Origin: the human T2T-CHM13v2.0 reference genome, Homo sapiens
Strand: one strand, 5' to 3'
NCBI RefSeq assembly: GCF_009914755.1
Contig: NC_060928.1
DNA: 64,000 bases
This document shows positions 15,495 to 64,000 of this stretch, piece after piece. Both the position numbers and the translations under genes were made by a program. The notes beneath the pieces are model-generated. The model searched no databases and had not been told where the DNA came from. It saw only the letters and a list, made by a program, of their open reading frames with translations. Position 1 is the stretch's first letter. Each line of letters starts with the position of its first letter.

Positions 15495-17611
15495 TAGGAC
15501 GCCTTTTTTCTAACCACTACCTCCACTAGCTAGAAGGGGGAGCTCCAGCTATCACAATGGAAATGACAGGGGTCGATCAGCTGTACAGGATCACATCTTT
15601 GGAAGCAAACAGCACAGGCAATATTTTCATTAGAAGCCTTTTGGTAAATTAATAAGCTAAAGGGTCACGGGATGCTGACAGTGATATGACACATGCATTT
15701 TTACATAAACATTTGGACTTCATGTTTCTAGTTTAAACATTTTATCCACAGAGATGTCTGAGTCATCTCCTCACAGTCTTCCTCCCTTCACTCTCCTTTG
15801 AAATAAAGACTATATAAAATGACAACTTTCTAAAGGAAAACATGCAAACGAAAGACAAAAATCCAAAAGTCACATTAACATACCATAAAATATTTGAATA
15901 TCTGTTTGGACCCCTGGAGACCCACCACATGTCATCCTGAAAGTAGCATGCAGAGATTTATTTTGTATCCTTTTCTACTTCCTGAATAATGCTCCCACTC
16001 AAAGTGAAAGGATTCCAATTTCATGGCAGGCTAGAGGGTGTTTTTTTCTGAAGCTCCTTACTTAACATCACATTGCATACAACAAAACATACCAGTCAAT
16101 ACCAGTATTATATTTCACTAAAATTTCTGTTGAAGAAGAAATCTTCAGAAAAGGCTCCTTCTTTTTATAAAAGAATTTTTTTAATTGACATTAAAAATCA
16201 ACTCATTCTGAATTACCATTTTTATATGAAAGTTTCTGCTATAGACAAAATGGAAAATCAGAGTTTCACTTTATCCAACATCATCCCTAAGAAATGCTTC
16301 ATACACAGAAGTGTTCTTTTTTCCATACGCCAGCAGCATTATTAAAAAAGAAACAGAAAAAAAGCTCTGGCATCAGTCTTCAATATTGTTGTCTAATTAA
16401 ATGGCAACGCAGTGGATGCGTAAAAATATGCATTAGAGGTGTGTAATGTGTAATGTGAAGAAGAGTAATCCAAGCCATTCAACAGGATTTAGGAAGGGAT
16501 TTCAGCTGGCAGCTTACGAGACAGGAGCATATAATTTTGCTAATTTGAAATAGGTATTGTAACGTATAAACATTACTGCTTTGCACATTTTAATGAAAAC
16601 TGCTTCTACACCAAAATGAATCCTTTAGCTTGAACTCTCTGCATACCACAGAGCTTCTACCTATTATGAGTTCAGCATAAATAAGGAAGGCACGCAAGCT
16701 GCATTAAAAGAATGGTCACCTCATTAAAAATAGGTTAAAACCAAGCCCCTATTCTAAGCTACCATAACACCATAAAGTAAGTCTGATGACAGGTGTTGTA
16801 TTAAATTTTTATATCGCAATGAACTTATACTCACACAAACCAAATCTGCATGTTTCCCTTGATATACACCTGCAACTTGTTAATTCAAGAAACTTTATTA
16901 AGAAAGCATAAATTTAGCAACACCTATAGATTTGTAAAGCCCTATTAGCTTGCTTGACAATCTAGAGTAAATGTATTTGGGGTCTTACTTGCATGGTTTG
17001 CAAAGACGTGGACACTACCCATGACTTTTTTCAAAAGGACGTGCTTGCAGATAGCACAGTTCCACAAATTGATGTACGCATATTACCTAGACTTGGAGCC
17101 AAAAGAGTTGAGAGAGATTTGGGTCCTGTGTGGAGCTGAGGACATCACTTACCTGCCAGCCTGCTTCTCGCTGAAGTACTTTTTTCCAGTCTTCTTCCAG
17201 CCTTGGGGAGGTCTCATCCATTGCTGATGCTGCTTGCACAAACTGGATTCGCCAGCGGCTGTTACTCTCTCTCCTTGCAAGCTTTTACCAAAGCAGCAGC
17301 CAGGGCAGTCCAGGGGCAGACTGTCATGGAGAAAATGCCATGCCAGAGGATGAGGGATCGGGCAGGAAGAACCCACCGGGGAACAAATTTGGGACACATG
17401 GGGCTACCCAGACAGATGCCAACTGGCCAAGCTGAAGGCCAGCTCAGCCATCAAGCGTCCAGAGATTAGGAACAACCAAGCTCCAGGGCCGGTGGACAAT
17501 GGGTCATTCTTATGCTTGTGGTGTAAAGGTCAGAAGAGGGAAGTGTGCAGGCTTGCTCTATGCTTGAGAAATATGCATTTCTATGTGTGCTCCCGTCTTC
17601 TCCTTGCCCCA

Positions 17612-48600: not shown

Positions 48601-49240
48601 CCCCGGGATAACATGTCATGCAATAATGTGAATATGGGCATAATTTAGAATTGGCTCATCCTCCCTTCAGCCCCAGTTCTCAAATGGGGAAGGCTAAAGT
48701 TCTGTTGAGTGTGTGTGTGTGTGCATGTGTGTGCAAACACACGCACTGGTGGTCATGCCCATGGAAGAGAGGCTGACGGTAGGTCCCCACTTGTCAAGTA
48801 TTCTCCCAACCCAATTGCTCCAGAGTGAGCCAATGAAACAGATGACAACTAGCTAGATTCCTGGAATCACTGCAGCTATCCCTGAAAGTCCTGGCCAACC
48901 AAAATTGTTCCATTCAACAACCAAGCCAGAACAGACCTCTGCCACCAGGTAGTACCAAACTACAGATGGGACTGGATGGATTTGGATCTTGCAGCAAGAT
49001 CCCTGAAACCCAAGAGCTTAGCTGTAGAGGGTCTCCCCAGTAATTTCCTGCACCTCACAGCTAATGCTCCCTCTCCCTTGTTTTACACAGTTGACTTTTT
49101 TGGAACCCACACATTGCATCTTGGAAGGTTTCACTATAGCCTTATTCATTGTGAATAGTATGGATAGTAGCATGGATAGAGTGTAAGGCAGAAAATAAGC
49201 ATAGAGACAAAGCCCCGATTATCAAGAGTTGCATATTCCA

Positions 49241-49274
49241 CTATCGTTCTTGTCGGGACTGAGGTTAAAAAAAA
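49241..49274 (+). pseudogene. SNORD116: Probable 5'-truncated retrocopy of a box C/D snoRNA 3' end (SNORD116-like) with A-tail
   Basis: Insert ctatcgttcttgtcgggactgaggtt plus A8, between 17-bp TSDs (49224-49240, 49274-49290; 2 mismatches); 20/26 identical, transitions only, to the recalled SNORD116 end CCGTCGTTCTCATCGGAACTGAGGTC. Confidence 0.55.
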
Positions 49275-49349
49275 GGAGCTGCATATTCCATGCTAAAGAG
49301 TTTGGACATTATTCTGAGGTCCAATGGGGGAACCAGTGGGTAAATGTAA

Positions 49350-49580
49350 GTCAGTGGTTCAAAGTCAAGGTTAGGCACAGATGCAATTTTTTTAGCCTGT
49401 GAAAGATTTTCAAAATCAAGTCATTCTGCTTAAACCTGGATCTCTGACTTCCCGTAAGAAGCTGGGCTGACTTTTCCATTTGCTGGAGTAGCATTGCTCT
49501 TTTCAGATGGAGTGTGCTCTCCTAGTCTCTATAAGCCCCACCATACCCAAGCAGTTTCAGTTTCATGCCTTTGCTAAGCT
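49350..49580 (-). mobile_element. MER102-like DNA transposon within L2
   Basis: 'acctggatctctgacttc...ttcagatggagtgtgctctcctag...ccccaccatacc'. Confidence 0.6.
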
Positions 49581-51679
49581 TGATTCCTATAGGAATCTAA
49601 GTTGGCAAAAAAAAAAAAAAACAAAAAAAACAGCTGTGACAGAATCAAATTTGCATGTTAAAAAGTTTACTGGAGCAAAAGTATTGAGATTGGGTGACAG
49701 GACGGGGAGAGATGAGAGGCAGGAGAACCTATTGGAGGGTTATAATAACCATTAGGGCTCTTTCTACATGCAGAACCCAAGGAAAGATGTCAGAAATGGC
49801 TGTGAATACCACCTTCAAAAACCAAACGATAGCCGGATACACTATCTTGCAATGCTAACCCATAACCCCATAATCTAAATGCAAATGTCGAGGTTTCACA
49901 GCAGCACCACAGTTTGACAATACTGATGGGAAACACAATAAATACTGAGGCAAATACACCAGTCAGAAGTAAAGTAAATTAATAGTACAGCTTAGCTGGG
50001 ATCACAAATGAATCACTCCAAAAGCAATTTTGTCCTGTTGTAAAATGAGATAAATACCTACTTGCCAGTTATTTTAGGAATAACACAAATCAGCCCATCT
50101 GTCTTAATTCAATGGTACTCATCATACATTTTTAAAGTTATCACTTCCTGAAGAGTCATCCTATTGGTGCCAACACACACTTTATGTTGACAGTCTATGG
50201 CATGACCTGCAATCTGGGTGTCATTTCAGAGCAGCGTGGAAACCCTAAGCTATGCGTCTTTGCCGAAGTGACTTGTTCTCTGGAAAGCAGGGGAGAGGGA
50301 GCTCCTAGTTGCTGGACAGGTACAGTCTTCAAATGACATTGGAGAGGAAGCTGAAGGTAGAAGCATTTTTTTTTTTAGGAAGGAGATGCAAATGTTAGTA
50401 CAGAGAACAATTTACTGCAAACTAAATTACTAATCAATATCTAGTAGTAGGCAGACTGTCCACTGTGGCTGTGAGAGTCATATTCAATCTATGATGGGAG
50501 ATGCTAGAAAAGGAGACTGCTCTGCTTAAATTTTATTCTTGTTTTGTATTCAGACATAAATAAGCTTGCTGATCATATCACTCTCTCAGATTTATGGAAA
50601 ACACAAGAGAGCACAAGAATTTCAGAAAACCTCCCTGGATCTTGCAATTTCTCAGAGTAAATACTTCACACTCCCTCCTTGAATGTAAGAAAACATGGGA
50701 TAAGAATTAATCCAGGAAACTCCTAAAACTCAGGGTTAGAAACTTAACGCTTCATAGAAAATATTGGGTTAGAGAGCCTGCAGTTGAGAGTAGTGAAAAG
50801 ATCTCAAAATGTATTTTATGATCAATTCAAACTTTAGGCAGAATAATGAGCCCAAGTTATATAGAGTCCAACAATGGTATTTTATACATCTTAAATTAAT
50901 AGTGATGGGAATCACATAATTAACTCCCACTTATCATTTCATTCTGGACTCTTCAGAAACTTGCCAGGTCCTCCCCCAATGAGAGCTCCAACAAAATGCC
51001 TATAAATTCATTTTTGTCACAGTGAGTACACAGAGAGGCTCTCTCCCCATCTGCTTCTTCAAGGTGGTCTCCATGCAACTATTCACTCTCTTTCTGATTA
51101 CGTAACCTGGAGCTGTAGACCCCTAGCTCCACACCCCAAAGCAGCTGCTGTTAGTCTCAAAGATAACTAGCCAGGGATCCTCTCTTCTCACAGAAGCAGT
51201 TCTGCAAGTAAACCACCAGTCTACTCCCATTGATGCTAGTAGGGCTCAATGGAAAACTCCACTCCTGCATTGTTTCTTTCTCCTTCCCTACTTCTTATGC
51301 CCTGTATTTGTAATTATCTTTACAAGAGAGATCATCAATTTACAAAAAAATGGCATTAAATCTGTAAAGTTGCTGAAAAGTTGTATAGAAGATTAGAGGT
51401 TCATGTAAGAGTTGAGAGAGAGAGAAAGAGAGAGACCTCATACCCCCAATATATTAAATTGACTTATCTCTACAGTAGGACAACTAGCTCCTAAGCTTCT
51501 TGAGGTGAGGCTGCAAGGAATGTGGCTCACATATCTGCCCTGCCCACCTCCCAAGAGGAGTCTCGCAGGGCTCCTCGAATAAATAAGTAAACACCTTTCC
51601 TTGCTTCTATGACTTAAAACCAAACTAAGAAGAGGATGGGCTCAAAGTGTAATTTTCTTAAACTCCTGGCGGGCTTTGA

Positions 51680-55248: not shown

Positions 55249-55856
55249 TAATCTAGTTCAACCATTGTGGAAGTCAGTGTGGCAATTCCTCAGGGATCTA
55301 GAACTAGAAATACCATTTGACCCAGCAATCTCATTACTGGGTATATACCCAAAGGATTATAAATCATGCTGCTATAAAGACACATGCACACATAATGTTT
55401 ATTGTGGCACTATTCACAATAGCAAAGACTTGCAACCAACCCAAATGTCCATCAATGACAGACTGGATTAAGAAAATGTGGCACATATACACCATGGAAT
55501 ACTATGCAGCCATAAAAAATGATGAGTTCATGTCCTTTGTGGGGACATGGATGAAGCTGGAAACCATCATTCTCAGCAAACTATCGCCAAGGACAAAAAA
55601 ACCAAACACCTCATGTTCTCACTCATAGGTGGGAATTGAACAATGAGAACACATGGACACAAGAAGGGGAACATCACACACCGGGGCCTGTTGAGGGGTG
55701 GGGGGACCGGGGAGGGACAGCATTTGGAGATATACCTAATGTTAAATGAGGAGTTACTGGGTGTAACACACCAACATGGCAAATGTATACATATGTAACT
55801 AACCTGCACGTTGTGCACATGTACCCTAAAACTTAAAGTATAATAAAAAAAATAAT
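55249..55856 (+). mobile_element. L1PA (PA3/4-like) 3' end of about 0.6 kb, 5'-truncated
   Basis: ORF 55317-55628 gives the ORF2p C-terminus (MFIVALFTIAKT.NQPKCPSM.DWIKKMWHIYTMEYYAAIKNDEFMSFVGTWMKLETIILSKLS); 3' UTR and tail; TSD aataataatggtg (55236-55248, 55857-55869). Confidence 0.97.
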
Positions 55857-63111: not shown

Positions 63112-64000
63112 GGGCATTAGGAATCTCCAGTGCAATCAGATACGATAGATACTCAGCACAGCACAGTCCCTCAAGGAATGCTAGTTCCCATTCCACTCTC
63201 CCCAACCCCATTTTACAGATGCATAAAGAGAAACAGATCCACAAGATGAATTGCCTAAACAGGATACAGTAAGTGAGAAAAAGAGAAAGTCACCTTCCAA
63301 AATTCAGAGGCCCTTGCCCAGTCTACTGGTCCATACTGCCCCCCACAAGAAATGGCAGCACAGTGGGCATAGAGAATCGCTTCAAACAAAAGGCTAGATG
63401 ACATTCCTGGCTTCTGGCCATGGGAAGATTCATATCTCAATGTAACTTCAATGTTCCTAAGCCACCGACAAGGGGTCAGTGGCAGATCATTGCGTACAAG
63501 CAAACAGCTTTTTCAAAATCCTTTCCCTGAAATGCTATCCAAACAATCAAACAAGAGCTAACCCGTTTCCCCCCTCAAACACAGGTAAAACGACTTGATA
63601 ATTCTATGATGACAACAAGCCCAGTTATCAAGCACCACCCTCATCTAACATGATCATAAAAACCTTTCTCAGTCAGATTTATGGATTGTCATGCGAGCCC
63701 CTGAAGAGCTCCTTGCCAGAGGGAAAACCAGGACACCAGAAGGCCAGGTCACATGAGCATAGAGCCCAAAGTTCAGAGCATATAACTGCCCACACCCCTG
63801 GTCTGTGTGCTCACCAGATTAAACCAGCTACAAGATGTCTAAAAGTTAGAACAACAAACACACTGCCAGGTTTGCAGTTAACCTGTAGTCCGACAGGGCC
63901 ACCTGGTCATGCATCCCCCCTTTTAATTCCCCCTGAAGGTCAGAGAACTCACCCACAACCTGAGAGCATATCCACCCACAGCCTGTTCCAAGTCAGTTTC

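What the first reader, a model, noticed from the sequence alone, without database searches (positions are those of the whole stretch)
49224..49290. Tiny retroposed insertion resembling the guide and box D end of the Prader-Willi snoRNA SNORD116
Seen in sequence: an antisense L2 is interrupted by a 26-nt foreign segment (ctatcgttcttgtcgggaCTGAggtt) and an A8 tail. These are flanked by 17-bp direct repeats (aagagttgcatattcca / aggagctgcatattcca), and removing the insert plus one repeat restores continuous L2-like sequence. Established: TSD plus A-tail is the signature of L1-mediated target-primed reverse transcription, and CTGA a few nucleotides from the end is the box D position of a C/D snoRNA. 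From memory, the SNORD116 (HBII-85) 3' end is ...ACCGTCGTTCTCATCGGAACTGAGGTCCA. It aligns without gaps at 20/26, all differences are transitions, and several are at CpG positions. Inference: a 3'-adenylated, processed snoRNA was retrocopied in the germline, and the fragment is too short for standard annotation. If the host gene is on the - strand, its pre-mRNA would carry a sequence complementary to the guide region of this orphan snoRNA.
Basis: partly seen in the sequence, partly recalled or inferred. Interest (0 to 1): 0.8.

Follow-up and report, generated by a model that had tools for sequence, protein, structure and literature searches.

The report
Truncated SNORD116 retrocopy in PPARGC1A intron
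A 26-base scrap of the Prader-Willi snoRNA SNORD116, copied back into the genome long ago by the LINE-1 machinery, sits inside an old repeat in a PPARGC1A intron and is most likely an ordinary, inert molecular fossil.

Summary
At 49224-49290 a 26-nt segment plus A8 lies between 17-nt direct repeats (15/17). The insert matches it 20/26 without gaps, and all six differences are transitions. One of 200,000 shuffles reaches 20/26, and no other site in the window reaches 18/26. A profile of 12 paralogues of the flanking old repeat aligns straight across the junction only when the 50-nt unit is removed.

Best reading: a severely 5'-truncated, L1-mediated retrocopy of an oligoadenylated SNORD116. This is a known kind (snoRNA retroposon, Weber 2006) with a new, very short member.

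Against: Rfam finds nothing here. As a blind scan the match is weak (nhmmer E 0.25). No outgroup genome was available to show the empty site.

The insert is antisense to PPARGC1A, whose CNS transcripts would carry its complement. The residual SNORD116 pairing (-17.5 kcal/mol) is no better than six other sites in the same 64 kb. Low interest.

The parts
49224..49240 (+). Left copy of the target site duplication (AAGAGTTGCATATTCCA). The inferred L1 endonuclease nick lies at its left edge (top strand TC|AAGA).
   Evidence: It matches the right copy 15/17. Paralogues of the flanking repeat hold this stretch once.
49241..49266 (+). Retrocopied 3' end of SNORD116: 1 nt, then the 17-nt guide element upstream of box D (ASE2), box D CTGA (49259-49262), then 4 nt of the terminal stem.
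   Evidence: 20/26 ungapped to group-I copies L015-L018, with 6/6 differences transitions. 1 of 200,000 shuffles reaches this. It is the top nhmmer hit of the window with the group-I profile, but only 7.6 bits, E 0.25. It is unique in the genome at 3 or fewer mismatches.
49267..49274 (+). A8 tail. The last A may belong to the right repeat.
   Evidence: It is the only one of the 6 close direct-repeat loci in the window with an A run before the second copy.
49274..49290 (+). Right copy of the target site duplication (AGGAGCTGCATATTCCA).
49207..49347 (.). It is split by the 50-nt unit 49241-49290.
   Evidence: The profile of 12 paralogues aligns to 49207-49240 + 49291-49347 in one piece (17.4 bits, E 4.6e-7). 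With the unit left in, it aligns only to the right part (11.4 bits). In the deletion scan, 50-nt deletions starting at 49223-49241 score best.

Best explanation
This is a severely 5'-truncated retrocopy of a SNORD116 snoRNA, of a group-I-like copy from the 15q11-q13 cluster. It was made in the germline by LINE-1 target-primed reverse transcription.

Inferred steps: a mature or slightly trimmed SNORD116 carrying a short oligo(A) tail was taken by L1 ORF2p. The - strand of an old repeat was nicked at 5'-TCTT/GA-3'. The T-rich end primed on the A tail. Reverse transcription stopped after about 26 nt. Staggered second-strand cleavage gave the 17-nt duplication.

The copy holds only the D-box guide element, box D and part of the 3' stem. 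It has no box C, C' or D' and no 5' stem, so it cannot form a snoRNP. It has since decayed by transitions, partly at CpG, and is most likely neutral.

Shown: the anatomy, the match to SNORD116, and the interruption of a repeat family. Inferred: the L1 machinery, the adenylated RNA substrate, an age of roughly tens of millions of years, and neutrality.
For: - Anatomy: repeat, 26 nt, A8, repeat.
- The 26 nt match the last bases of four group-I SNORD116 copies 20/26 with no gap and only transitions. Four more copies give 19/26 and one gives 18/26; the other 21 hits give 15 or fewer.
- Chance controls: 1/200,000 shuffles reach 20 or more. 0 of 1165 near-matching shuffles are all-transition, with a mean transition share of 0.36. 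It is the only site in 128 kb with 18/26 or more.
- The match ends at the snoRNA's 3' end where the A tail begins, as in type-1 snoRNA retroposons (0-9 extra bases, short A-rich tail, 7-19 bp duplication; Weber 2006, PMC1687206, passages seen).
- The flanks belong to a dispersed repeat: 31 genome hits to a 24-mer from 49636-49659 against 1 for the control. Its 12 usable paralogues have one copy of the duplicated stretch and no insert. Removing exactly 50 nt gives the best fit.
- SNORD116-like copies outside chr15 exist (3 of 30 Rfam hits: chr1, chr13, chr9). The chr1 copy ends in an A-rich tail.
Against: - Rfam's SNORD116 model does not report the insert at E up to 10 in three runs, even when the insert is given alone.
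- The nhmmer profile of 23 chr15 copies does not list it among 40 hits at E up to 1000.
- The group-I profile gives only 7.6 bits, E 0.25 for the window. A blind genome scan would therefore drown in chance hits, and the case rests on the insert being delimited independently by repeats and tail.
- 6/26 differences is more than the 2/17 between the two repeat copies.
- No other group-I 3' fragment exists in the genome at 3 or fewer mismatches (9 hits, all chr15), so there is no young precedent for such a truncated copy.
- The endonuclease site is two changes from consensus.
- No outgroup genome was available, so the empty site is shown only through paralogues.
Confidence: 0.78

Rival explanations
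1. It is a genuine L1-mediated micro-insertion (duplication plus A tail), but of the 3' end of some other RNA. The likeness to SNORD116 would be chance.
For: The match is short and Rfam is silent. nhmmer gives E 0.25 window-wide. I could not compare the insert with all small RNAs or mRNA 3' ends.
Against: The insert was delimited before any comparison. For such a fixed 26-mer only 1/200,000 shuffles reach 20/26 at any offset of any copy. The match also sits at the very 3' end, next to the tail, and all 6 mismatches are transitions (0 of 1165 near-matching shuffles). No closer source exists in the genome at 3 or fewer mismatches.
Confidence: 0.12
2. It is not retroposition. A local duplication or double-strand-break repair event copied 17 nt and captured filler DNA, and the A run is incidental.
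For: Close 17-nt direct repeats are 24 times more common in the window than in simulated sequence (6 loci against 0.25), so such repeats arise by other routes too.
Against: None of the other 5 loci has an A run before the second copy. The sequences that follow the two copies are unrelated, so it is not a tandem duplication. The filler matches an RNA's 3' end in the orientation that puts the A run at its 3' side.
Confidence: 0.05
3. The retrocopy has been co-opted. Its complement in the intron of CNS-specific PPARGC1A pre-mRNA would be a binding site for SNORD116's D-box guide and would affect processing of those transcripts.
For: The gene is on the - strand and the window lies between exons of its far-upstream transcripts (hub annotation). 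CNS-specific transcripts start far upstream and are abundant in brain (abstracts of PMC8036390 and PMC7031416). The duplex with the group-I guide is -17.5 kcal/mol, the lowest on the - strand of the window.
Against: - The duplex is 8 + 4 bp with a 2x2 internal loop, and a mismatch at the second position from box D flanks the canonical methylation position.
- Three more - strand sites reach -17.2 to -17.4, and three + strand sites are better at -20.0, -18.8 and -17.7.
- PPARGC1A occurs 0 times in the main text and in the one held supplement of the SNORD116 target study PMC8789076.
- The site decays like neutral DNA, with transitions at CpG.
Confidence: 0.03

Closest known systems
Type-1 snoRNA retroposons (snoRTs; Weber 2006, PLoS Genet, PMC1687206)
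   Same: snoRNA-derived sequence ending at or near the mature 3' end, a short A-rich tail, a target site duplication within the 7-19 bp range, and location in a gene intron (passages seen; anatomy).
   Different: snoRTs as defined start at the mature 5' end of the snoRNA. This one keeps only the last 26 nt and lies antisense to the host gene. 'HBII-85' does not occur in that paper's main text; its supplements were not looked at.
5'-truncated L1-mediated retrocopies (processed pseudogenes, truncated L1 and Alu insertions)
   Same: Target-primed reverse transcription signature: duplication, A tail, a pyrimidine/purine nick site, and truncation from the 5' side.
   Different: The template is a non-polyadenylated small nucleolar RNA. 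The product is far shorter than what annotation pipelines record.
SNORD116 (HBII-85) group-I genes, 15q11-q13 (Rfam RF00108)
   Same: The 3' 26 nt (ASE2, box D, start of the 3' stem) match 20/26.
   Different: There is no box C, D', C' or ASE1, no 5' stem and no host-gene context, so it is not a snoRNA gene.
Dispersed SNORD116-like copies on chr1, chr13 and chr9 (L026, L027, L029)
   Same: SNORD116-derived sequence outside the imprinted cluster. The chr1 copy is followed by an A-rich tail.
   Different: Those copies span most of the snoRNA (Rfam 47.8-61.2 bits). No clear duplication was found for them in the flanks examined.

Membership tests
Type-1 snoRNA retroposon (Weber 2006) | Sequence derived from a known snoRNA | tested here: met
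   20/26, all differences transitions, to group-I SNORD116 3' ends. Shuffle controls. Rfam itself gives no hit.
Type-1 snoRNA retroposon (Weber 2006) | Starts at the mature 5' end of the snoRNA | tested here: not met
   Only the last 26 nt are present. The upstream 24 nt match SNORD116 at 10/24 and belong to the duplicated target. Truncated versions are mentioned in the paper for type 3.
Type-1 snoRNA retroposon (Weber 2006) | 0-9 extra bases, then a short A-rich tail | tested here: met
   A8 follows GGTT, where the source reads GGTCCA. There are no intron bases.
Type-1 snoRNA retroposon (Weber 2006) | Target site duplication of 7-19 bp | tested here: met
   17 nt, 15/17.
Type-1 snoRNA retroposon (Weber 2006) | Empty site in related species at one end of the duplication | not testable with these tools
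   No other mammalian genome is held. As a substitute, 12 paralogues of the target repeat have one copy and no insert.
L1 target-primed reverse transcription product | Nick site close to 5'-TTTT/AA-3' (consensus recalled) | tested here: inconclusive
   The site reads 5'-TCTT/GA-3' on the primed strand. It is two transitions from consensus and the pyrimidine/purine pattern is kept.
Box C/D snoRNA gene, SNORD116 family (RF00108) | Boxes C and D with terminal stem, score over the gathering threshold | tested here: not met
   Only box D is present. There is no Rfam match at E up to 10.
Canonical C/D guide target site | Continuous duplex of about 10 bp or more that includes the fifth position upstream of box D | tested here: not met
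   The duplex pairs ASE2 nt 2-9 and 12-15 with a 2x2 loop, and nt 16 is mismatched. The energy is matched or beaten by 6 other sites in the window.
L2 (LINE-2) repeat as the target | Match to the L2 consensus | not testable with these tools
   No repeat library is on hand. Shown only: membership in an old dispersed family (31 hits against 1 for the control; profile E 4.6e-7). The name L2 is recalled.

The most novel reading that the evidence does not exclude
Retroposition of the guide end of an orphan snoRNA, landing antisense in an intron, created a ready-made landing pad for that snoRNA. Here SNORD116 could dock on the CNS-specific PPARGC1A (PGC-1alpha) pre-mRNA, linking the Prader-Willi snoRNA to a master regulator of energy metabolism. 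More broadly, micro-retrocopies below annotation size could be a source of targets for orphan snoRNAs.
Probability: 0.03. Interest if true: 0.75.

Novelty: new member of a known kind. Interest (0 to 1): 0.25.

Why it matters
The finding shows that L1 also leaves snoRNA-derived insertions of only a few dozen bases. Rfam-based and repeat annotation cannot see these, so counts of snoRNA retrocopies are lower bounds. For SNORD116 it adds one dispersed fragment to the three near-full-length copies outside chr15. A functional link to PPARGC1A would matter for Prader-Willi biology, but the evidence here speaks against it.

Tried and rejected
- Rfam cmscan at E up to 10 on 48700-49800, 49215-49295 and 49241-49268 gave no snoRNA hit on the insert.
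- nhmmer with all 23 aligned chr15 copies did not list the insert. blastn-short ranks its 22-nt hit (E 4.2) below 15 short exact matches.
- Paralogues of the flanks were sought by several routes that failed.
  - Own-genome DNA searches with 401, 63 and 262 bases found only the window itself.
  - A six-frame protein search gave one Alu hit, which is noise.
  - A local blastn of the flanks against the window and the loci found nothing.
  - A sequence-only model could not be run on this genome.
  - The route that worked was a 24-mer pattern from a distant part of the same repeat.
- Pairwise blastn and single-sequence nhmmer between the window and the paralogues were too weak. Only profiles worked.
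- The idea that the retrocopy extends further 5' was rejected: the upstream match is 10/24 and that stretch is the duplicated target.
- A tandem duplication was rejected because the sequences after the two repeat copies differ.
- Paper reading closed, so the supplements of the SNORD116 target-prediction paper PMC11662933 were not seen and may list intronic PPARGC1A sites.
- A literature search for SNORD116 retrocopies listed no paper holding SNORD116 among its 15 rows. The SNORD115/116 evolution paper PMC12429941 has 0 occurrences of six retroposition-related terms.

Full report
**What is there.** One search shows, on the + strand:
- AAGAGTTGCATATTCCA at 49224-49240;
- a 26-nt segment, CTATCGTTCTTGTCGGGACTGAGGTT, at 49241-49266;
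- eight A at 49267-49274;
- AGGAGCTGCATATTCCA at 49274-49290.

The two 17-mers agree at 15 of 17 positions, and both differences are transitions. The repeat finder reports the same pair as 49226-49240 / 49276-49290 (14/15, spacing 50). The sequences that follow the two copies are unrelated, so this is not a tandem duplication.

**Is the repeat pair special?** Only partly. A scan for non-low-complexity 17-mers repeated at 15/17 or better within 18-100 nt finds 6 loci in the window. The mean in 20 first-order Markov simulations is 0.25. Close direct repeats therefore arise in real DNA by several routes. This is the only one of the six with an A run directly before the second copy.

**The SNORD116 match.**
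- Rfam family RF00108 run over the window's own genome gave 30 hits: 27 in the chr15 cluster and one each on chr1, chr13 and chr9.
- The insert matches it without gaps at 20/26, and all six differences are transitions.
- Four further copies give 19/26 and one gives 18/26. These nine are the group-I copies. The other 21 hits give 15 or fewer.
- With gaps allowed, group I still fits best (score 8 against 4 or less for group II and III examples).
- Group naming, and the definition of ASE2 as the 17-mer upstream of box D, follow Baldini et al. (PMC8789076, passages seen). Those passages also say that ASE2 is the more variable guide and that group I is closest to the ancestor.
- By that definition the insert is 1 nt + ASE2 + box D + 4 nt of the 3' stem.
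- Two of the six differences fall in the source's CCG. One more (insert position 11) is a CpG only in the group-II version (alignment).

**Chance.**
- Of 200,000 shuffles of the insert, compared at every offset with all 1201 distinct 26-mers of the 30 copies, one reached 20 matches, 22 reached 19 and 191 reached 18.
- In a second set of 200,000 shuffles, 1165 reached 17 or more. None of these had only transition mismatches, and their mean transition share was 0.36.
- In the real window, both strands, the insert is the only position with 18/26 or more to the five distinct group-I 3' 26-mers. Five other positions reach 17.
- The match also sits at the very end of the snoRNA, next to the tail. 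That is where retroposition puts it, and a chance match need not.

**Results against.**
- Rfam cmscan at E up to 10 reports no snoRNA on the insert. This holds for 1.1 kb, for 81 bases, and for the 28 bases given alone so that a 5'-truncated match was allowed.
- An nhmmer profile of 23 aligned chr15 copies (14 of them group II or similar) does not list the insert among its 40 hits at E up to 1000.
- A profile of the nine group-I copies makes it the top hit of the window, but at 7.6 bits, E 0.25. The single copy L015 gives 8.4 bits, E 0.22.
- By calculation a random genome of this size would hold about 250 sites at 20/26 or more. I could not count them, because the pattern search allows at most 3 mismatches.
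- The case therefore rests on the 26 nt being delimited beforehand by repeats and tail, not on a scan.

**Other places in the genome.** The insert itself is unique at 3 or fewer mismatches. The group-I 3' 26-mer at 3 or fewer mismatches hits only the nine chr15 copies, against a control of 0. There is therefore no closer source and no younger sibling fragment.

**The target was a continuous old repeat.** Direct searches for paralogues of the flanks failed. A 24-mer from 49636-49659 gave 31 genome hits at 3 or fewer mismatches, against 1 for the reversed control. I suspected from memory that this stretch belongs to the same repeat.

I fetched 724 bases around each of the 30 other hits.
- A profile of all 30 matched the window at the seeded place and also, unseeded, at 49262-49350 (E 1.5e-4 in 800 bases). 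The two places are adjacent in the profile but about 284 bases apart in the window.
- Twelve of the 30 are family members upstream of the seed at E below 1e-3. The other 18 were dropped. They include three that belong to another family, two with an Alu and four sharing only A runs.
- A profile of those 12 was built with the seed cut off and no window sequence in it. It aligns to 49207-49240 joined to 49291-49347 in one piece (17.4 bits, E 4.6e-7). With the 50-nt unit left in, it aligns only to the right part (11.4 bits).
- None of the 12 has extra sequence at that place (alignment).
- In a scan of deletions of 0-80 nt (steps of 5) starting at 49180-49300, the best scores (17.4-18.9 bits) belong to 50-nt deletions starting at 49223-49241. 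That is exactly one repeat copy plus insert plus tail. Runners-up are 30-35-nt deletions at 49253-49258 (17.2-17.5 bits).

This stands in for the empty site, which I could not test because no other mammalian genome is held. No tool here can name it, and I did not determine its orientation.

**Mechanism.** The anatomy is that of L1 target-primed reverse transcription. This rests on established knowledge of L1, and the consensus site is recalled. The inferred nick is at 5'-TCTT/GA-3' on the - strand (top strand TC|AAGA). That is two transitions from TTTT/AA, and the pyrimidine/purine pattern is kept.

The tail begins after GGTT where the source reads GGTCCA. The template was therefore a mature or slightly trimmed snoRNA with an oligo(A) tail, not the host intron. 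[quoted passage not shown] It differs in keeping only 26 nt. Weber mentions truncated versions ascribed to arrest of the reverse transcriptase (same passages).

One base (A) is shared between the end of the left repeat and the snoRNA base before the insert. This fits microhomology at a truncated 5' junction, which is an inference.

**Age (inference only).** There are 2/17 differences between the repeat copies and 2 non-CpG differences in the insert. Two of the source's CpGs are still intact. Together these suggest tens of millions of years rather than a recent or a very ancient event. Part of the 6/26 may reflect a source copy that differed from today's, since ASE2 varies among copies.

**Function.** The fragment has box D but no box C, C' or D' and no 5' stem, so it cannot make a snoRNP. 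PPARGC1A is on the - strand, and exons of its other transcripts lie at 17153-17320 and 63953-63978 (hub annotation). The site is therefore intronic to far-upstream transcripts. Two abstracts describe these as CNS-specific and abundant in brain (PMC8036390, PMC7031416; listing). Their pre-mRNA would carry the complement of the insert.

The group-I ASE2 pairs with that complement at -17.5 kcal/mol, against -29.5 for a perfect site. It uses nt 2-9 and 12-15 with a 2x2 internal loop, and the second position from box D is mismatched. This is nominally the best site on the - strand, but three others reach -17.2 to -17.4, and three on the + strand are better (-20.0, -18.8, -17.7). PPARGC1A does not occur in the main text or in the one held supplement of the SNORD116 target study. 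Of the 14 papers that hold both names, none of the 12 listed has either in its title or abstract. I conclude the complementarity is a by-product of origin with no sign of use.

**Verdict.** This is a real, old, severely truncated SNORD116 retrocopy, a new and unusually short member of a known kind. It is of modest interest, mainly as an example of what annotation thresholds miss.

Noticed in passing
window 49351-49634: A second insertion of about 284 bases splits the same old repeat. The family profile's positions 152 and 158 lie at 49350 and 49635. It ends in an A-rich tail (49607-49630, A16 C A8) on the + strand, so it is probably another retroposed element. The own-genome DNA search with 49345-49606 found only itself, and its source is unknown.
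   Followed up: partly
G000 chr1:214870426-214870517 (L026), chr13:39075607-39075699 (L027), chr9:138632657-138632739 (L029): Three SNORD116-like copies lie outside the chr15 cluster (Rfam 61.2, 58.5 and 47.8 bits). The chr1 copy loses the D-box guide region and runs into an A-rich tail followed by an Alu. No clear target duplications were found in the flanks examined.
   Followed up: partly
window 49156-49179: A tandem 12-mer, TAGTATGGATAG / TAGCATGGATAG, lies just upstream in the left flank.
   Followed up: no
window 48700-48762: An imperfect (GT)n microsatellite produced the weak mir-297 and SCARNA7 Rfam matches. These are chance hits to low-complexity sequence.
   Followed up: no
window 55552-55582: A weak likeness to the SNORD116 region upstream of box D (nhmmer 4.6 bits, E 1.9). 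Its complement is also one of the -17.4 kcal/mol guide-pairing sites. It has no tail or flanking repeats in the alignment shown, and I take it as chance.
   Followed up: no
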